The notes under the pieces are model-generated. The model was given only the letters and a program-made list of their open reading frames with translations. It had not been told where the DNA came from and did no database searches. From Thermofilaceae archaeon (lineage in GTDB: Archaea > Thermoproteota > Thermoprotei > Thermofilales > Thermofilaceae): 64,000 nucleotides of DNA. Below are positions 50,551 through 57,278 of the stretch, piece after piece. The position numbers and the translations under genes were made by a program. The first letter of the stretch is position 1; each line of letters begins with the position of its first letter. The stretch covers positions 128,001 to 192,000 of the forward strand of contig JAWCCZ010000003.1 in assembly GCA_038861545.1 (NCBI GenBank), in the 5' to 3' direction.

Positions 50551-52062
50551 GTGGGTCTACGTCTAGGTCTCATAGTAGTTGTTATACTGCTAGCCTGTAC
50601 CATTTGGACAGTCTCTGGAGCACCGGATCTCAGCTACTTCATAGAGGTTCAAAGAAACGGTAATGCTAGCGTAACATTAGTAGTGACAGATAGCAGGGGG
50701 TCGCGTTTTTACACATACTTACCACGTTTCGAGAAATGGAACTATACTGTATGGAGTGGGCAGCTGCTGAATATAACCGAAAAGGAAACACAGTATTACT
50801 TTTACAAAAATGTAAGTTTTAGCTATATAACAAATGAAGCAGGTTCATTCGGTATGAATGTTTCATACATGTTTCCCTTTGCTTCTCTTTGCATTGGAGA
50901 CAGAGGCTGGTTCATGTCTCCCTTATTAGGAGCACCACCCGAGGCTTATGTGAAAATACAAGTAAAGATCAGCGGTTTAGCAAAAATTTTGGACGTATCA
51001 CTAAACGATGCGCTAGTACGCTACAGGAGTAGCGGCGAGAATATCTGGATAGATGCTTCCTCGCAGGGCTTAGCTACTGGTGGGCGAGTTGTAGTAAATT
51101 ACAGACTGTCTGAACCCATAGCAGATGAAGTTTTCGAGTTTAGTTTTAACGGGGTAGTCACTAAAGTGAGATCACCCCCCCTCTATAGGGGGTTCGCGGG
51201 CACGATTTTTAACGTAACCAGTCTTGCGTTACCGAAGCTCAGTCAACATCTCGGATATGCGGTAAACGCGGTTGAGTTTGAGTTCTTTTTGCCTGCGCAG
51301 CTGGGTCTCAGTGCTCTAGGTTACGTGATCGGAGAAGATATCAATGTAGGAGGAGAAGGGGCAATACATCTGAACTTAGCCTTGTTAAGGTTTAAAGAAG
51401 GTTACTTAGAAGCCACAGTAGTGCACGAGCTTGTACATAAAGCGCTTGGAGCCGCAGGTATTCCGGCCAATCAAGAGCTTCGCTGGTTTCATGAAGGTGT
51501 TGCGCAATACGTTTCACTCAGGGTCTGCAGAGAGCTAGGTCTTGACGTCAGTGATGAGGAATCATCTCTAGAGAATGCAATTTGGATGTTTAAACAAGGT
51601 TTAGTTAAACCTGGTTTCGTTCAGAGATGGGCCCCCTCCGGAGATGAATCATCTTACTACACGGCCTCATACTACATCGTCTCCGAGCTGGCTAAGTCGA
51701 GAGGTGAAATGAACTTCATAGAGGCAGTAGTCAGAGAGATTAAAAAGAGGGGTGGCGTAAAAAATAATCAAGAATTGGTAGATGCTATTAGCTCGGCAGC
51801 AGAAGAGGATCTATATCCGCTATTCGCTGAATGGGGGTTTAGTATAGAAAGGCCAGCTAAAACGCCTGCAAACATAACAATAGTTGCAGCCTTAGCGCTT
51901 ATCATGGCTGTGGCGTTTTCCCTTTACATTATATTAAAGCAAAGAGAACATGCTAAATGTCCGTACTGTTACGCTGAAATTCCACGTGATGCTGTTTACT
52001 GTCCTTACTGTGCTTATCCACTCAAACCAACTGAAGACGGCGGGCCTAATTTATCAAACTAG
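50551..52062 (+). CDS. Membrane-anchored gluzincin (M1/MA-like) metallopeptidase with cytoplasmic zinc ribbon
   Basis: Signal peptide, HELVH..(18)..WFHEG, C-terminal TM followed by CPYC..CPYC. Confidence 0.8.
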   Translation: MGLRLGLIVVVILLACTIWTVSGAPDLSYFIEVQRNGNASVTLVVTDSRGSRFYTYLPRFEKWNYTVWSGQLLNITEKETQYYFYKNVSFSYITNEAGSFGMNVSYMFPFASLCIGDRGWFMSPLLGAPPEAYVKIQVKISGLAKILDVSLNDALVRYRSSGENIWIDASSQGLATGGRVVVNYRLSEPIADEVFEFSFNGVVTKVRSPPLYRGFAGTIFNVTSLALPKLSQHLGYAVNAVEFEFFLPAQLGLSALGYVIGEDINVGGEGAIHLNLALLRFKEGYLEATVVHELVHKALGAAGIPANQELRWFHEGVAQYVSLRVCRELGLDVSDEESSLENAIWMFKQGLVKPGFVQRWAPSGDESSYYTASYYIVSELAKSRGEMNFIEAVVREIKKRGGVKNNQELVDAISSAAEEDLYPLFAEWGFSIERPAKTPANITIVAALALIMAVAFSLYIILKQREHAKCPYCYAEIPRDAVYCPYCAYPLKPTEDGGPNLSN

Positions 52063-52082: not shown

Positions 52083-53483
52083 TTAACCATACCTGTCGTC
52101 AAGTTCCTCATCCTGTTCGTAACGCTCTCTTCTAGTAGTTTTTTCCAATGCCCTTCTTACCTCCCAGCCTAAGTAAAAAGCATGGTCGGCCGATAGGGAA
52201 GAAGCGAGGGCCTTTATAGACCGGTAAATCGGTTCTAGAGTCACAAGTTGACGTCCATCAGGGGCTCTATGCTCGATCTCTATTTGTTTGTCTTTGATGG
52301 AGATCAAGAAATTACCCCTCGGATCTGGGACGAATGCCGAAAGTATCTCATAGTAGTCGTGTACTAATTTCCAGGCTTTCTCCCAGTCGTGCTCGTAAAC
52401 GTGAGCAGAACAACTGATCAGAGTAACGACACCTAGTTTTAATCCCAGGTTTTCAGCAATGTTTTCAGCTAGTTTTAATTGTCCCCAGGCGTTGTAGGGC
52501 CATGCCCCGTATACATCGTTGCTCCTAACGAAGACCGTGTGATTGTAGAAGCCTTCCGTTACATCACCTTGTATCGCCAGTATGCATGGAGGCTCTGTAC
52601 TGTTTTTATCCACATTATGTTCCCAAAGGACAGCTAAGGCCCTACGAGTATCTGGGCAGTCTTTAAGCTTTCTGATCAATGTTTCAAGCTGGTCGCCTGC
52701 AATAGAATGAGCCCGTAACCTTTCACCGTAAGTGTAGGTAACGCCTTCAGGTTTTTGTGGCGAAAAGAGGCCGCGCAGGTGGGCTTCAAAACCACTGGGG
52801 TCTATGTATCTGGAGAACTCTCTCTCCAAGTTTAGTTGTTTACCGTAAGCATGAAGCGAAACAATAAGATTAAGCAGCTGTTTTTGGCGTTCACCATACT
52901 CGCTTTTCTTAACTGAACCGTAGAACATTACCGAGTACATAGCCTTAACCCAGGCTCTGAAGAGTGAGTCGTCCTGGACAAGCTGACCACTTATCGGTAA
53001 TGGCCATCCCTCTACAGCAATCTCGGTGAGTTCGAGTTCCACTACCGCCCGCTTTGGAGGTGAGGGATTATACAGAGAAGTAATAGTATTTTCAAGGGAT
53101 TTCCAGTCACCTTGTCTAAACGCCTCCCGGAGGTCAACTACTTTAATGTCGTTTATGACTGGTTGAACAATTTCAAGTGGCCACATAAGTGCAAAGGTAC
53201 GTTTTCGTTCTTGGAGAAATTTAATTAGCGCTTCACCGCTTCCCGAAAGATCCGCACCGAAGATTACAAGTGTGTTAACTTCAGGGTGCTCAGCTAGCGT
53301 ATGTAAAAGATAGTTGATTCCGTAAGGCGTGTAAAGCGTACCAACGGCCTGTACATTTCCGATTAACCCTCTCTGCTCAAGATAGCGAAGTATTATATCC
53401 TTTCGAGTCCATAAAGTCACTATCGCAATATTGGATCGAGAGTTAACGAAGATAACATCTTTATGTATCACCTTAATTCCCAA
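52083..53483 (-). CDS. Thymidylate synthase (ThyA-fold) fused to an N-terminal MtrA-like domain and a C-terminal DUF4346 domain
   Basis: YTYGERL, TRRA, PPC, RSND, AWPYN, SAHVYEHD; N-terminal IVTLW..G.LY..GI..L..HP..L.IFG.D; C-terminal DPRGNF.I..HA.YLG.E. Confidence 0.85.
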   Translation of the reverse strand: MGIKVIHKDVIFVNSRSNIAIVTLWTRKDIILRYLEQRGLIGNVQAVGTLYTPYGINYLLHTLAEHPEVNTLVIFGADLSGSGEALIKFLQERKRTFALMWPLEIVQPVINDIKVVDLREAFRQGDWKSLENTITSLYNPSPPKRAVVELELTEIAVEGWPLPISGQLVQDDSLFRAWVKAMYSVMFYGSVKKSEYGERQKQLLNLIVSLHAYGKQLNLEREFSRYIDPSGFEAHLRGLFSPQKPEGVTYTYGERLRAHSIAGDQLETLIRKLKDCPDTRRALAVLWEHNVDKNSTEPPCILAIQGDVTEGFYNHTVFVRSNDVYGAWPYNAWGQLKLAENIAENLGLKLGVVTLISCSAHVYEHDWEKAWKLVHDYYEILSAFVPDPRGNFLISIKDKQIEIEHRAPDGRQLVTLEPIYRSIKALASSLSADHAFYLGWEVRRALEKTTRRERYEQDEELDDRYG

Positions 53484-53574: not shown

Positions 53575-54447
53575 CTAAACATTCTTAGTTTGGTTTAGCC
53601 CGTCTAGGCCATTCAAACCGCTTAAGTAGCTGGTAATTAATAGGCGGGCATGGTCGCTTCTTGGATGCGCTATAATTTCTCCCAATAGACCTTCCTCAAC
53701 TATGACTCCCTTATAGAGTATAACAGCTCGGTCGGCCAAATACTGTGCAACTGGTAAATCATGTGTAACAGTCACCATCGCTAATTCCAGCTTCTTCTGG
53801 ATATTACATAAAAGGTCTATAATCTGCGCTTGGATTGAGACGTCCAGAGCCGAAGTTGGTTCATCTAGCAGAAGCATTTCTGGATCATGAACAATAGCTC
53901 TGGCTATGAGAACTCTCTGCATCATTCCACCGCTTAACTGTGAAGGATAGTAACTTAGAATTGATTCGTGGAGCTGTACTATCCGAAGAGCATCCTTTAT
54001 TTTTTCTGTCTTCTCCCTTTCGCTTAGATCAACTCTAGCTAATGGTTCAGTCATAACGTCCGCTATTTTAAGCCTAGGATTCAGCGACCTTGCTGGATCC
54101 TGTGGAACATATCCTATTTGCCTTGTAACCCGCCATCGCAACCTAGCGGGTATTCTATAGATCTGCTCTCCAACGACTATGACATCACCTTGAAGAGGAG
54201 GGAGAAGTCCCAATATTACTTTCAGCAATGTAGTTTTACCGGATCCACTTTCCCCGATAATCGCTAGGCGTTCACCATCATTCACCCTCAAATCAATATC
54301 CATGATTACAGGTTTGAATATTTTTTTCAGGGTTTTGAAGCCCTCAGCTATGTAATAGCCCGCCGTAACTTTTCTAAGCTCGATTATCGCGCTGCTACCC
54401 GCGGTTGTTGTAGAGCCAGCACGCCACATACCGATCACCTTCAGCAA
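53575..54447 (-). CDS. Peptide ABC transporter ATP-binding protein (DppF/OppF-like; start uncertain)
   Basis: GESGSGKTT, LSGGMMQR, LLDEPTSALD, THDL. Confidence 0.92.
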   Translation of the reverse strand: MLKVIGMWRAGSTTTAGSSAIIELRKVTAGYYIAEGFKTLKKIFKPVIMDIDLRVNDGERLAIIGESGSGKTTLLKVILGLLPPLQGDVIVVGEQIYRIPARLRWRVTRQIGYVPQDPARSLNPRLKIADVMTEPLARVDLSEREKTEKIKDALRIVQLHESILSYYPSQLSGGMMQRVLIARAIVHDPEMLLLDEPTSALDVSIQAQIIDLLCNIQKKLELAMVTVTHDLPVAQYLADRAVILYKGVIVEEGLLGEIIAHPRSDHARLLITSYLSGLNGLDGLNQTKNV

Positions 54448-55369
54448 CTAAAAGCTCAGGTTTCTCAGCGGCACATTTTGAAAACCTGTAGGGACATCTC
54501 TCAAAGAAGGGACAGCCTTCATTAATACTGCCTGGCTTCGGAGGCTCGCCAAAGTAGTATTTAAACTCTTTTTTCACGCCAAGCGTGGGGATAACGTTTA
54601 CGAGCATCGACGTATACGGGTGAAGAGGCTTTAACAGAACTTCACGTACCTCGCCGATTTCTGCCAAGGAGCCCGCGTACATTACGGCTACTTTATCACT
54701 AACTCTGCTAGCGAGGAGAAGGTCATGTGTTATGAAAATTACAGTTAGTCTAGCTTCATCGCGAAGTCTGCGGAGAAGGTTTATAATTTGGAGTCTAAGG
54801 TGAGCATCAAGCGAACTAGTTGGTTCATCTGCTACTAAAACCCGTGCACCGGTTGAAAGGGCGAGAGCAATAGCGGCTCGCTGCTGCATACCTCCGCTAA
54901 GTTCGTGAGGGTACCTATCAAGAGTAGATGTTGGATCCAACCCGGCCATCTCCAGGTACTTTTTGGCTTCAGCCTTTGCCTCCTTTCTAATACTGCCTCG
55001 AAGGCTCTTCAACACGTAGTAGAACTGATCCTCTAACGTGAGGTAAGGGTTGAGACTAGTACCTGGACTTTGAGGAACATAGGTTACAAGTTTTCCTCTA
55101 ATTTTCTCGTAACTCCTTTCCTCCCCTTTTATAACCAGATTACCGTAAACGTAAAGTTCGCCTGCAGTCACCGCATGAGGGGGTAAAATGCCAGATACGG
55201 CAAGTGCAACTGTTGATTTTCCGGATCCGCTTTCACCCACTATGCAGTAAATTTCTCCCTCACTTACTTCGAAGCTGATTCCTTTCACAGCCCAGAGAAC
55301 ATCATCCCTCTCATCCAGGTAACCGATCCTTAATTTTTCGGCTTTTATGGCTAAAACCATAGCCTCCAC
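54395..55369 (-). CDS. Peptide ABC transporter ATP-binding protein (DppD/OppD-like)
   Basis: GESGSGKS, YPHELSGGMQQR, HPYT, GCPF..RC..C..C oligo-HPY tail. Confidence 0.94.
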   Translation of the reverse strand: MEAMVLAIKAEKLRIGYLDERDDVLWAVKGISFEVSEGEIYCIVGESGSGKSTVALAVSGILPPHAVTAGELYVYGNLVIKGEERSYEKIRGKLVTYVPQSPGTSLNPYLTLEDQFYYVLKSLRGSIRKEAKAEAKKYLEMAGLDPTSTLDRYPHELSGGMQQRAAIALALSTGARVLVADEPTSSLDAHLRLQIINLLRRLRDEARLTVIFITHDLLLASRVSDKVAVMYAGSLAEIGEVREVLLKPLHPYTSMLVNVIPTLGVKKEFKYYFGEPPKPGSINEGCPFFERCPYRFSKCAAEKPELLVAEGDRYVACWLYNNRG

Positions 55370-56256
55370 CTCCTTCTCATTTTCGGGTCGAGCTCTTCTC
55401 TCAGGCTATCCCCAAGCATGCTAAAGCCAAGAGCAGTTAACAGGATGAAGAGTCCTGGGAATAGGCTTATCCAGGGCATAGAGATCACGTACTTGAAGCC
55501 GTTTTGGACGATGATACCCCAGTCGGGGGCGTCCGGAGGCAATCCAAGCCCAAGGAAGTTTATAGCTGCAGCTTCGAGTAATATGCTACCCATGTCGGTA
55601 ATGGCCTGTACCAGTACGGGTGGTAGCACGTTTACTGCAACATGCTTGAATAACACTTTCCTAGCTGGTACTCCCGCCAACTTCGCCAGAGTAACATAAT
55701 CCATCTCTGTGATGCTTCGAGCGTACACGTACGCGACCCTGGCATACCAGGGCCACCATGTCAGAAGCAAGCTTCCGATAACCACGTGAAGCCCCTGCCC
55801 GAGGACCATTCTGAGTGCAAGAGCTAGGACAATTGCAGGTAAAGCTAGGAAAACTTCGGCGACATAGTTAACAATTGTTTCGATAGCTTGCCTATAGTAA
55901 GCAGCACAGATTCCCAGCAGTAAGCCCAGTGCTAAGCCAACCAAGATAACTGCTAGCGACTGAACCAGTGCCAGCCACGCCCCGACCAGTATCCTAGACA
56001 GTATATCTCTTCCCAAGTGGTCGGTGCCTAGCAAAAATTCCGAGCTCGGAGGTTTTCCCGCCCGCTCCGCCGCCTTAGGGGGTACAACTCCCCATCCATC
56101 GCTTGGGTAGGGGGCAATGAATGGTCCAAGAATCGCTACCATGACCATTGCTACCACTATAACTATCCCGGCCCTAAACCGTAAGCTCCTGCCCCAAGCC
56201 CTCTTTGCTAATTCCTCAAGTCCGCCTAAGTTAGAATGACGGCCTTCATTCATCAT
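55351..56256 (-). CDS. Peptide ABC transporter permease (DppC/OppC-like)
   Basis: LGTD.LGRDILSR..G, EAA loop, FLGLG..P.WG. Confidence 0.94.
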   Translation of the reverse strand: MMNEGRHSNLGGLEELAKRAWGRSLRFRAGIVIVVAMVMVAILGPFIAPYPSDGWGVVPPKAAERAGKPPSSEFLLGTDHLGRDILSRILVGAWLALVQSLAVILVGLALGLLLGICAAYYRQAIETIVNYVAEVFLALPAIVLALALRMVLGQGLHVVIGSLLLTWWPWYARVAYVYARSITEMDYVTLAKLAGVPARKVLFKHVAVNVLPPVLVQAITDMGSILLEAAAINFLGLGLPPDAPDWGIIVQNGFKYVISMPWISLFPGLFILLTALGFSMLGDSLREELDPKMRRRWRLWF

Positions 56257-57278
56257 AATTTCACCCTAGGATCCACGATAGCTTGTACAATATCTGCCAG
56301 GGTATTGGCGAGTACGTAGAATAAAGCAACCACTACCATTAACCCGATGGAGAGCCTAAAGTCACCGGTGTTAACAGAGTCGAATAGAAACCTGCCTAGA
56401 CCATCGCGTCCAAAAACATACTCAACAACCATCGCATCCACAAGACTGTACGCGAATGCAAGGCCTGAAACTTGAACGAGGCCAGCTAGTGCTGCTCTAA
56501 AAGCGTACCTCCATACGATGGCACGCTTAGAAACGCCCCAAGCAACCGCCGATTGTACAAAACCTTCTAAAAGGGCGTCTGCCATTAAAGCTCTAGTTAC
56601 TCGTGTGCATACGCCAACAGGGTACGCGGAGACCGCCAGCGCCGGTGGAAGTGTCCTAGTTAAAACATCTAAGAAAACTGGAAAGTTAAACTGCAGCAAC
56701 GCATCTAAAAGGTAAAGGCCAGTAATGCTTTTAAAGCCTGTTGCCAGTGCAAGTCTGGTATCCACCCTACCGTACGCGGTGATACCCGAGGCGTTGAGGA
56801 TCATAAAAATAGCTATACCGAGCCAAAAGGTTGGCGTGTTAGCTAGAGCAAGGCTTGCTGACTGTATAAAACCGTCCAGCCACGTGCCTCGGCGCAGGGA
56901 AGTTGTAACGCCAATGAACGCACCTAGGGGGATGGCTATAATATAAGCTAAAACGAGCAATTCCAGGGTAGCCGCTAAACCATGCCAGAGAATCTCGAAA
57001 ACCGGTTTTTTATAAGCGATTGAAAGCCCTAGGTCGCCGGTAAACACCATCCGAAGGAAGTTAAGTACTTGCAAGTAAAGGGGTTGGTCGAGACCTAGTT
57101 CTTTTCTCGCGTTCTCGATGGCTTTAGCTGCACCTGGACCACGAGGATTACCGGCCCACTTAATCGCAGGATCTCCAGGAGACAGTATTAATACAAGATA
57201 GGAAAAGGTAACAACCCCAGCTATTATTGTGATGCTCCAAGCGATCCGTTTAATTAAATAATTTAAACTAATCGGCAT
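56253..57278 (-). CDS. Peptide ABC transporter permease (DppB/OppB-like)
   Basis: PGDPA, LGLDQP, GDLG.S, AT.EL, P.FWLG, VE.VF...GLG. Confidence 0.94.
   Translation of the reverse strand: MPISLNYLIKRIAWSITIIAGVVTFSYLVLILSPGDPAIKWAGNPRGPGAAKAIENARKELGLDQPLYLQVLNFLRMVFTGDLGLSIAYKKPVFEILWHGLAATLELLVLAYIIAIPLGAFIGVTTSLRRGTWLDGFIQSASLALANTPTFWLGIAIFMILNASGITAYGRVDTRLALATGFKSITGLYLLDALLQFNFPVFLDVLTRTLPPALAVSAYPVGVCTRVTRALMADALLEGFVQSAVAWGVSKRAIVWRYAFRAALAGLVQVSGLAFAYSLVDAMVVEYVFGRDGLGRFLFDSVNTGDFRLSIGLMVVVALFYVLANTLADIVQAIVDPRVKL

What the first reader, a model, noticed from the sequence alone, without database searches (positions are those of the whole stretch)
52083..53483. Three-domain thymidylate synthase: MtrA-like + ThyA + DUF4346
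Seen: a ThyA core with catalytic PPC, RSND, the dUMP-specifying Asn (AWPYN) and AHVY. It carries a ~150-aa N-terminal domain (IAIVTLW..VGTLY..GINYLL..HPEVNTLVIFGAD..SGEAL) and a C-terminal DPRGNF..HAFYLG.E domain. Known: the N-terminal pattern resembles MtrA, the corrinoid-binding subunit of methanogen Mtr; DUF4346 also occurs fused to dihydropteroate-synthase-like and MtrA-like proteins; many crenarchaea use ThyX rather than ThyA. The MtrA cobalt-ligand His appears absent here (GADLSGSG). Inference: the extra domains may supply or recycle the C1 carrier, acting as a built-in pterin reductase analogous to DHFR-TS or as a corrinoid-linked methyl donor. That would be an uncharacterised route to dTMP. 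Similar fusions probably exist in other genomes, so the novelty is the chemistry rather than the sequence.
Basis: partly seen in the sequence, partly recalled or inferred. Interest (0 to 1): 0.75.

Follow-up and report, generated by a model that had tools for sequence, protein, structure and literature searches.

The report
Three-domain archaeal thymidylate synthase
This gene encodes a thymidylate synthase set between two extra conserved domains, and in this archaeal lineage it seems to be the only way to make the DNA base thymine even though the usual folate-cycle helper enzymes are missing.

Summary
Window 52083-53483 (-) encodes a 466-aa protein with three domains. Residues 1-160 are a true MtrA homologue. 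Residues ~161-383 are a minimal methanogen-type ThyA core with its catalytic residues intact. Residues 384-466 are a DUF4346 domain. The MtrA-like domain has lost the cobalt-ligand His84, Glu54 and the conserved meander, so MtrA-style cobalamin binding is unlikely.

The architecture is not unique. It occurs in Thermofilaceae, Vulcanisaeta, DPANN archaea, Nitrososphaerota and CPR bacteria, and databases call it plain "thymidylate synthase". This scan has flagged the family on other DNA many times.

Within the window's order, 26 genomes carry the long form and none of them has ThyX or SHMT. The 8 ThyX genomes all have SHMT and GcvT. This genome shows no DHFR, DHPS-like enzyme, SHMT, GcvT, ThyX or thymidine kinase. 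In CPR bacteria the fused gene sits beside dCMP deaminase, dUTPase and thymidylate kinase.

It is most likely the cell's dTMP synthase. The flanking module probably handles the C1/pterin cofactor, but that chemistry is untested.

Two caveats apply. Outside this order, about half of the fusion-bearing genomes also have ThyX. This genome also holds a second, divergent short ThyA paralogue.

The parts
52083..53483 (-). Whole ORF, 466 codons plus a TAA stop. The start is TTG at 53483, with an alternative GTG at 53471 (residue 5).
53004..53483 (-). MtrA-like Rossmann-type domain (residues 1-160). It lacks His84, Glu54 and the GAIPF/YxEN meander of MtrA. Its own invariant residues are L24, W25, Y51, G55 and G76, and D78, S82 and G83 are nearly invariant.
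52335..53003 (-). Linker plus minimal methanogen-type ThyA core (residues 161-383). Key residues are Cys300 (52584-52586), Arg280/281, Arg320-Ser321-Asp323, Asn331, His361/Tyr363 and Tyr252.
52086..52334 (-). DUF4346 (PF14251) domain, residues 384-466, with three beta strands and two helices. Asp387, Gly390, His434, Gln457 and Asp458 are invariant or nearly so.

Best explanation
The gene encodes a member of a widespread, biochemically uncharacterised three-domain branch of the ThyA family. In this Thermofilaceae lineage it is most likely the enzyme that converts dUMP to dTMP.

Shown here:
- The central domain is a minimal, methanogen-type ThyA core. It has the nucleophilic Cys, the inter-subunit Arg pair, the RSxD motif, the dUMP-specifying Asn, the H-x-Y motif and the Tyr94 equivalent.
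- The flanking domains are a His-less homologue of the corrinoid protein MtrA and a DUF4346 domain.
- In other organisms these two flanking domains form one contiguous ~270-290 aa protein. In the fusion, the ThyA core therefore sits between the two halves of a pre-existing MtrA-like/DUF4346 module.

Inferred:
- All minimal archaeal ThyA cores lack the E. coli 40-90 segment that contacts the folate. No DHFR, DHPS-like enzyme, SHMT or GcvT was found in this genome.
- I therefore propose that the flanking module forms the binding and handling site for the one-carbon/pterin cofactor. It would hold a salvaged, modified tetrahydropterin and probably help to reload or re-reduce it.
- The methylene unit might come from free formaldehyde, since a hexulose-6-phosphate-synthase-like gene is present.
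- The module no longer binds cobalamin in the MtrA manner.

Which cofactor is bound, and whether the module is catalytic, is not known.
For: Identity and domains.

Catalytic residues:
- They were mapped against E. coli ThyA.
- Conservation in 70 homologues: C300 70/70, R320 70/70, Y252 70/70, D323 69/70, N331 67/70, H361 64/70, Y363 67/70.
- The accessory domains are conserved as strictly: W25 70/70, Y51 69/70, G390 70/70, Q457 70/70, D387 69/70, D458 69/70, H434 67/70. This points to a functional site rather than decoration.

Thymidylate synthase role:
- This genome shows no ThyX, thymidine kinase or DHFR.
- Two dCTP-deaminase-type genes could supply dUMP.
- In the order (41 genomes), 26 carry the long form. 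None of these has ThyX or SHMT, and one has GcvT.
- The 8 ThyX genomes have no long form, and all have SHMT and GcvT. There are contrasts inside four different families of the order.
- In one genus all 8 genomes, four of them single-contig and all but two 99% complete, have the fusion as their only ThyA/ThyX-type gene.
- In three CPR lineages the fused gene lies directly downstream of dCMP deaminase. In one of them it is followed by dUTPase and thymidylate kinase.

Module origin:
- Standalone MtrA+DUF4346 proteins of 273, 282 and 290 aa exist.
- An Atlas cluster of 292-aa MtrA/DUF4346 proteins was also found.

Pterin link:
- DUF4346 is otherwise fused to DHPS-like pterin-binding enzymes, seen both in the Atlas and in G024.
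- DHFR was found in only 1 of 32 fusion-bearing genomes of other phyla, and DHPS-like enzyme in only 1 of the 41 genomes of the order.

Loss of the cobalamin site.
Against: - There are no biochemical data for any member of the family.
- Outside the order, 15 of 32 fusion-bearing genomes also have ThyX and 13 of 32 have SHMT. The protein is therefore not always the sole thymidylate synthase or independent of a normal C1 supply.
- This genome also encodes a standalone ThyA-family paralogue that could be the working enzyme.
- The score is below NCBIfam's equivalog cut-off (144.6 against 174.55).
- The position aligned with the phosphate-binding Arg21 is Tyr196.
- The best structural neighbours of the core are non-TS ThyA-fold enzymes (9IQC Z 23.6, MilA Z 22.1). 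True ThyA scores 20.9, a margin of about 1-3 Z units.
- No pterin- or redox-cofactor motif was recognised in either accessory domain.
- The genome is 92% complete, so absences are not proof.
- Related genomes are not independent observations.
Confidence: 0.5

Rival explanations
1. Corrinoid-dependent thymidylate synthesis. The MtrA-like domain still carries a cobamide, bound without a histidine ligand. It would deliver a methyl group directly to C5 of the Cys-activated dUMP, so neither a methylene-pterin nor DHFR is needed.
For: - The only characterised function of the MtrA fold is corrinoid binding and methyl carriage.
- The beta2-alpha2 loop that holds the cobalamin nucleotide tail is partly kept: GxLYTxxGINYLLRN in the fusion against GPCKTENLGIEKVIAN in MtrA, with Thr53, Gly57 and Asn64 equivalents in the family consensus.
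- One CPR relative (L104) joins a His-bearing, strongly MtrA-like domain (113 bits) to a divergent ThyA-like core.
- Cobalamin is used by these cells: a B12-binding domain is present in 40 of 41 genomes of the order, including this one.
- The idea fits the absence of DHFR, SHMT and GcvT.
Against: - His84 lies in a two-residue insert that is deleted in the fusions. 0 of 70 fusions have His at that position.
- Glu54 is Pro or Lys here, and the GAIPF/YxEN meander is missing.
- The three standalone MtrA+DUF4346 proteins examined are also His-less.
- Asp323, the equivalent of the pterin-contacting Asp169 of ThyA, is kept in 69 of 70.
- DUF4346 is linked to pterin enzymes, not corrinoid ones.
- No enzyme that could re-methylate Co(I) was found. 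PF00809, the pterin-binding methyltransferase domain, is absent.
Confidence: 0.12
2. It is not the housekeeping thymidylate synthase. It would be a ThyA-fold enzyme making another C5-modified pyrimidine nucleotide, or a conditional second enzyme. dTMP would then come from the short paralogue or from salvage.
For: - It coexists with ThyX in 15 of 32 genomes of other phyla, including cultured Vulcanisaeta and Anaerovirgula.
- A second ThyA-family gene is present in this genome.
- The top structural neighbours are a riboflavin-dependent dCMP monooxygenase (9IQC) and the CMP hydroxymethylase MilA.
- The score is below the TIGR03283 cut-off.
Against: - Asn331, which specifies dUMP, is kept in 67 of 70 homologues; it is Asp in only 3.
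- The long form and ThyX never co-occur among the 41 genomes of the order.
- It is the sole ThyA/ThyX-type gene in the single-contig genomes of genus g9.
- In CPR it sits in a dCMP deaminase / dUTPase / Tmk context.
- The short paralogue belongs to a separate long-stemmed clade. It co-occurs with ThyX in 3 genomes and is patchy. It is therefore the less likely housekeeping enzyme.
Confidence: 0.15
3. Flavin- or other reductant-assisted use of free formaldehyde. The Rossmann-like N-domain would bind a flavin or nicotinamide that supplies the hydride, so the enzyme would act like a ThyA-fold analogue of ThyX.
For: - The best structural match of the core is a ThyA-fold protein solved with FAD (9IQC, Z 23.6).
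- The N-domain has a Gly/Ser-rich loop (DLSGSG) at a helix N-terminus and invariant aromatics (W25, Y51) at the ligand face.
- A hexulose-6-phosphate-synthase-like gene, a possible formaldehyde source, is present in this genome and in 27 of 27 high-quality genomes of the order.
- No DHFR was found.
Against: - No recognised flavin or NAD(P) motif or family hit was found.
- The N-domain's only clear relative is MtrA.
- The HPS-like gene is equally present in ThyX genomes, so it does not discriminate.
Confidence: 0.1
4. The accessory domains are only structural or regulatory, for example in oligomerisation, thermostability or allosteric nucleotide sensing. The core would work as an ordinary methylene-pterin ThyA.
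For: - Short methanogen-type ThyA works without these domains in methanogens.
- SHMT is present in 13 of 32 fusion-bearing genomes elsewhere.
Against: - Polar and aromatic residues of both accessory domains are conserved at the level of catalytic residues across archaea and bacteria.
- The same two domains recur as a separate protein and next to nucleotide genes.
- DUF4346 recurs on pterin enzymes and on a ferredoxin.
Confidence: 0.1

Closest known systems
Methanogen-type minimal thymidylate synthase (NCBIfam TIGR03283; MJ0757 type, about 210-230 aa)
   Same: The core fold and all the active-site motifs listed above are shared. Both have the same deletion of the E. coli 40-90 folate-contacting segment. 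Sequence blocks such as YTYGERLR and SAHxYEHDW are shared.
   Different: This protein is flanked by two extra conserved domains. Tyr196 replaces the Arg of the methanogen 'DERG' block. It scores below the equivalog cut-off. In the core tree all 29 methanogen short forms make one clade with none of the fused cores inside it.
MtrA, corrinoid subunit of methyl-H4MPT:coenzyme M methyltransferase (PF04208; PDB 5LAA, 5L8X)
   Same: They share the Rossmann-type fold (Z 15.8, rmsd 2.2 A) and profile-level homology (E 1.7e-18). The conserved residues lie on the same C-terminal face of the sheet where MtrA holds cobalamin.
   Different: His84, Glu54, the meander and the membrane anchor are all missing. 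The organism is not a methanogen and no Mtr genes are present.
Bifunctional DHFR-TS of protozoa and plants
   Same: Both are a thymidylate synthase fused to another domain, in a context where the cofactor must be recycled.
   Different: The extra domains here are unrelated to DHFR. The ThyA core lies between them rather than at one end. No reductase activity or motif has been shown.
DHPS-like pterin-binding proteins with a C-terminal DUF4346 (archaeal H4MPT-pathway type)
   Same: Both carry the same C-terminal DUF4346 domain attached to an enzyme that handles a pterin (G024).
   Different: The catalytic domain is different (PF00809 rather than ThyA), and those proteins have no MtrA-like domain.
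ThyX, the flavin-dependent thymidylate synthase
   Same: The inferred cellular role is the same. The two show a mutually exclusive distribution within this order.
   Different: The fold is unrelated. ThyX genomes in the order keep SHMT and GcvT, whereas long-form genomes do not.

Membership tests
ThyA / Thymidylat_synt (PF00303, EC 2.1.1.45) | Profile score above the curated cut-off | tested here: met
   56.3 bits against a cut-off of 24.3. The fold matches ThyA structures at Z 19-21.
ThyA / Thymidylat_synt (PF00303, EC 2.1.1.45) | Nucleophilic Cys (E. coli C146) in the P-C motif | tested here: met
   Cys300 in PPC, conserved in 70 of 70 homologues.
ThyA / Thymidylat_synt (PF00303, EC 2.1.1.45) | dUMP phosphate-binding arginines R126'/R127' and R166, and the pterin-contacting D169 | tested here: met
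   R280/R281, R320 and D323.
ThyA / Thymidylat_synt (PF00303, EC 2.1.1.45) | Phosphate-binding Arg21 | tested here: inconclusive
   The aligned position is Tyr196, whereas methanogen short forms keep Arg. The alignment is weak in this region.
ThyA / Thymidylat_synt (PF00303, EC 2.1.1.45) | Asn177, which selects dUMP over dCMP | tested here: met
   Asn331, conserved in 67 of 70 homologues.
ThyA / Thymidylat_synt (PF00303, EC 2.1.1.45) | dTMP formation from dUMP and a methylene-tetrahydropterin | not testable with these tools
   This needs an enzyme assay.
Methanogen-type ThyA equivalog (TIGR03283) | Score above the equivalog cut-off | tested here: not met
   144.6 bits against 174.55.
MtrA (PF04208) | Rossmann-type MtrA fold and sequence homology | tested here: met
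   The family profile hits 5LAA at E 1.7e-18 and the fold matches at Z 15.8. The single sequence itself does not reach the Pfam threshold.
MtrA (PF04208) | His84 cobalt ligand with the Glu54 hydrogen-bond partner | tested here: not met
   His84 lies in an insert that is absent here. Glu54 aligns with Pro53. 0 of 70 fusions have the His at that position.
MtrA (PF04208) | Conserved meander GAIPF/Y-x-EN | tested here: not met
   The segment is deleted or shortened in this clade.
MtrA (PF04208) | Bound corrinoid | not testable with these tools
   This needs spectroscopy or metal analysis.
PterinBD-DUF4346 (PF14251) | Profile score above the curated cut-off | tested here: met
   35.3 bits against 29.6 at residues 387-458.
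Bifunctional DHFR-TS | A DHFR (PF00186) domain in the same chain | tested here: not met
   There is no DHFR hit in the protein or in the genome.

The most novel reading that the evidence does not exclude
The MtrA-like/DUF4346 module makes this a self-sufficient thymidylate synthase. It would keep its own tightly bound cofactor (pterin, corrinoid or flavin) and reload it without SHMT, GcvT or DHFR, for example from free formaldehyde or a methyl donor. That would be a third mechanistic route to dTMP beside classical ThyA and ThyX.
Probability: 0.2. Interest if true: 0.9.

Novelty: new variant of a known kind. Interest (0 to 1): 0.6.

Why it matters
How archaea without a folate cycle make thymidylate has been open since the 1990s. 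[quoted passage not shown]

This family gives that question a concrete target. In Thermofilaceae a single protein appears to carry the whole task. In the long-form genomes searched no ThyX or SHMT was found, and GcvT and DHPS-like enzymes were almost always missing; this genome also shows no DHFR. Two strictly conserved domains of unknown function sit beside the active site.

Cultured carriers exist: Thermofilum pendens and Vulcanisaeta distributa and Anaerovirgula multivorans. The chemistry can therefore be tested directly.

If the module supplies or recycles the C1 unit, it would change how DNA-precursor metabolism is reconstructed for DPANN archaea and CPR bacteria. If it does not, the protein is an ordinary ThyA with decorations.

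Tried and rejected
- Literature: 'DUF4346' gave 0 papers (a first try timed out). 'MtrA + thymidylate synthase + cobalamin' gave nothing relevant. Searches for the 9IQC enzyme found nothing. A Thermofilum pendens search found nothing useful.
- Price et al. 2021 (PMC7857596) predicts MtrA as methyl donor for MesA. It does not mention thymidylate or DUF4346.
- The N-domain as a single sequence finds nothing in the PDB. Only the profile does.
- DUF4346 has no PDB relative by sequence. By fold, the best VIA Z is 5.6 and Foldseek finds nothing at E<=1e-3. Its fold remains unassigned.
- Complex prediction of the N-domain with DUF4346 gave 'no answer' (score 0.00). This is not evidence either way.
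- I could not read the model's coordinates, so inter-domain contacts could not be checked.
- The search for related loci with the 70-sequence alignment failed for lack of a conserved stretch. It worked with 17 sequences.
- Among 48 fused loci the commonest flanking gene family recurs in only 8, so no widely conserved neighbour was found.
- I looked for the split form next to a short ThyA. A sample of 151 CPR genomes gave 12 MtrA-like hits, all in 474-797 aa frames; ten of the 12 were read and confirmed as fusions in the core tree.
- The three standalone MtrA+DUF4346 proteins found had no ThyA-like neighbour in their short flanks. One is followed by thymidylate kinase.
- The hexulose-6-phosphate-synthase-like gene does not discriminate between TS types.
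Full report
**1. What is there**

The finding's coordinates are exact. Window 52083-53483 on the minus strand is a 466-codon ORF. Pfam finds a thymidylate-synthase domain at residues 251-372 and PF14251 (PterinBD-DUF4346) at 387-458. NCBIfam's methanogen-type ThyA model covers 168-369 at 144.6 bits, below its 174.55 cut-off, and a weak MtrA hit covers residues 3-88.

The protein has more than 100 full-length relatives at 25-100% identity, so it is a real, conserved gene.

**2. The three domains**

An alignment of 70 homologues (A1) gave an AlphaFold model with mean pLDDT 95.7 and pTM 0.89.
- Against about 48,000 PDB representatives, residues 164-381 match ThyA-fold enzymes. These are 9IQC, a riboflavin-dependent dCMP monooxygenase (Z 23.6), MilA CMP hydroxymethylase (Z 22.1) and bacterial ThyA (Z 19-21).
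- Residues 5-146 match MtrA with cobalamin (5LAA_B) at Z 15.8, rmsd 2.2 A. The next fold scores Z 7.4.
- A profile of 47 N-domains (A2) hits MtrA structures at E 1.7e-18.
- 33 of 70 homologues pass Pfam MtrA on their own.

MtrA homology is therefore established, not merely a resemblance.

DUF4346 modelled alone (pLDDT 90.6; three strands and two helices) has no convincing relative. This holds by sequence and by fold (best Z 5.6).

**3. Is it still a corrinoid protein?**

Wagner et al. 2016 (PMC4915002) define the MtrA cobalamin site by three elements. These are His84 as cobalt ligand, its hydrogen-bond partner Glu54, and the meander 109-GAIPF/Y-x-EN. The nucleotide tail is held by Asp17, Lys52, Thr53, Gly57 and Asn64.

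In the profile alignment, His84 sits in a two-residue insert (GhiVG) that the fusion family lacks (GADLSG--SGEAL). Glu54 aligns with Pro53 here, and the meander falls in an MtrA-only insertion. None of the 70 fusions has His at that position.

The tail-binding beta2-alpha2 loop is partly retained (GxLYTxxGINYLLRN). A new set of invariant residues (L24, W25, Y51, G55, G76, plus D78, S82 and G83 at 87-97%) lies on the same face of the sheet. A ligand site evidently persists, but MtrA-style His-on cobalamin binding does not.

One CPR protein (L104) joins a His-bearing, strongly MtrA-like domain to a very divergent ThyA-like core. The MtrA-ThyA association is therefore old, and some members may still bind a corrinoid.

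**4. The core**

I aligned the core with E. coli ThyA, 8 methanogen short ThyAs and 11 short paralogues from the order. It keeps C146, R126/R127, R166-S167-D169, N177, H207/Y209 and Y94. These are conserved in 64-70 of 70 fusions, except that the second Arg of the pair (R281) is kept in only 44.

Like all short archaeal forms, it lacks the E. coli 40-90 segment that carries E58, W80 and W83. The position of Arg21 is Tyr196.

**5. Is it the thymidylate synthase?**

The window's genome is 1.63 Mb and 92% complete. Searches found none of the following:
- ThyX
- DHFR
- pterin-binding/DHPS-like domain
- SHMT
- GcvT
- thymidine kinase

It does have two dCTP-deaminase-type genes.

In the 41 genomes of its order, 26 carry the long form. 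None of these has ThyX or SHMT, and only G016 has GcvT. All 8 ThyX genomes lack the long form and have both SHMT and GcvT. The switch occurs inside four different families of the order, so it is not a single inherited event. In one genus all 8 genomes, four of them single-contig, have the fusion as their only ThyA/ThyX-type gene.

In three CPR lineages the fused gene directly follows dCMP deaminase. In one it precedes dUTPase and thymidylate kinase. Together these results support a dTMP-synthase role.

**6. Caveats**

In 32 fusion-bearing genomes of other phyla, 15 also have ThyX, 13 have SHMT, and only 1 has a (weak) DHFR hit. Cultured Vulcanisaeta and Anaerovirgula have all three of fusion, ThyX and SHMT. 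The fusion is therefore compatible with a normal methylene-pterin supply, and it is not always the only thymidylate synthase.

This genome also has a standalone ThyA-family gene (L001 1189-1983). In a quick maximum-likelihood tree of core domains, it falls in a separate, long-stemmed clade of short paralogues from the order (support 100). That clade is sister to the methanogen type. The window's core sits in a 26-member clade (support 99) of Thermofilaceae, with hot-spring Aenigmatarchaeota nested inside.

The short paralogue co-occurs with ThyX in three genomes, and its best PDB sequence match is MilA. I judge it the less likely housekeeping enzyme, but this is not settled.

**7. Origin and meaning of the flanking domains**

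An exhaustive profile search with DUF4346 found 2,146 representative clusters, 763 of them at E<=1e-10. Among the best hits are standalone proteins of 273, 282 and 290 aa with MtrA followed directly by DUF4346. All three are His-less, and one lies directly upstream of thymidylate kinase. The fusion is therefore a ThyA core placed between the two halves of an existing module.

By structure, DUF4346 also occurs on DHPS-like pterin-binding proteins of archaea and on a small 4Fe-4S ferredoxin in Nanobdellota. In G024 of this order it sits on the only DHPS-like protein found. The common thread is an enzyme that handles, and in both ThyA and DHPS releases, a dihydropterin-type compound.

I therefore favour a role in binding, reloading or re-reducing the pterin C1 carrier.

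A hexulose-6-phosphate-synthase-like gene (186 bits against a cut-off of 200) could release formaldehyde as a C1 source. It is present in all high-quality genomes of the order whatever their TS type, so it does not discriminate.

**8. Novelty**

The protein is annotated as 'thymidylate synthase' in public records. I found no paper on the fusion or on DUF4346.

This scan has noted the family 146 times in at least 131 genomes, often reading it as B12-dependent. My data for this clade argue against MtrA-type cobalamin binding, and they add the ThyX/SHMT/GcvT complementarity within one order.

It is a new variant of a known kind: a ThyA with an uncharacterised, strictly conserved cofactor-side module.

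Noticed in passing
L001:1189-1983 (G000 contig 2, outside the window): This is a second, standalone ThyA-family gene (264 aa; TIGR03283 151.9 bits). It belongs to a long-stemmed clade of short paralogues found patchily in the order, sometimes together with ThyX. Its best PDB sequence match is the CMP hydroxymethylase MilA (5.6e-14), ahead of ThyA (about 1e-10). Its substrate is unclear.
   Followed up: partly
L104:1327-3003 (CPR genome G097): A 558-aa protein joins a strongly MtrA-like domain that keeps the His84-type 'SGH' loop (Pfam MtrA 113 bits) to a very divergent ThyA-like core (QPC, MRANDV, PAN). It has no DUF4346 (hhalign probability 98.9 against the fusion family).
   Followed up: partly
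L016, L018-L020, L022-L025 and L031 (hot-spring Aenigmatarchaeota) compared with Thermofilaceae loci: In the core tree these DPANN sequences are nested inside the Thermofilaceae clade (support 96-99). This suggests gene transfer between Thermofilaceae and co-occurring Aenigmatarchaeota.
   Followed up: no
G059:C4:62457-64476, and likewise in G061, G062, G063 and G065: In several DPANN genomes that also carry the fused ThyA, ThyX and SHMT lie within about 0.3-0.4 kb of each other. This looks like a ThyX-SHMT gene pair.
   Followed up: no
Atlas cluster (row 8); no locus fetched: A family of 193-aa proteins in Nanobdellota fuses a 4Fe-4S ferredoxin domain to DUF4346. This hints at a redox link for the domain.
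   Followed up: no
P0255 (786 aa): The best-scoring DUF4346 hit in the whole library is a 786-aa protein with two DUF4346 stretches and a ThyA match. It may be a tandem or doubled fusion.
   Followed up: no
window 50551-52062 (+): A 503-aa predicted membrane protein has an HExxH-like VHELVH motif and a C-terminal zinc ribbon (PF13240). It converges on the ThyA gene, with its stop only 20 nt from the ThyA stop.
   Followed up: partly
G000:C5:99848-100477 (L085:1486-2142): A 3-hexulose-6-phosphate-synthase-like gene scores 186 bits, just under the 200-bit cut-off. It is present in 27 of 27 high-quality genomes of the order. It may serve reverse-RuMP pentose synthesis, which releases formaldehyde.
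   Followed up: partly
window 53575-57278 (-): Directly upstream of the ThyA gene lie four co-oriented genes. The two nearest encode ABC-type ATPases, one with the oligopeptide/dipeptide-transporter C-terminal domain. The two beyond look like permeases by eye and were not checked. There is a 91-nt gap before the ThyA start. No functional link is apparent.
   Followed up: partly
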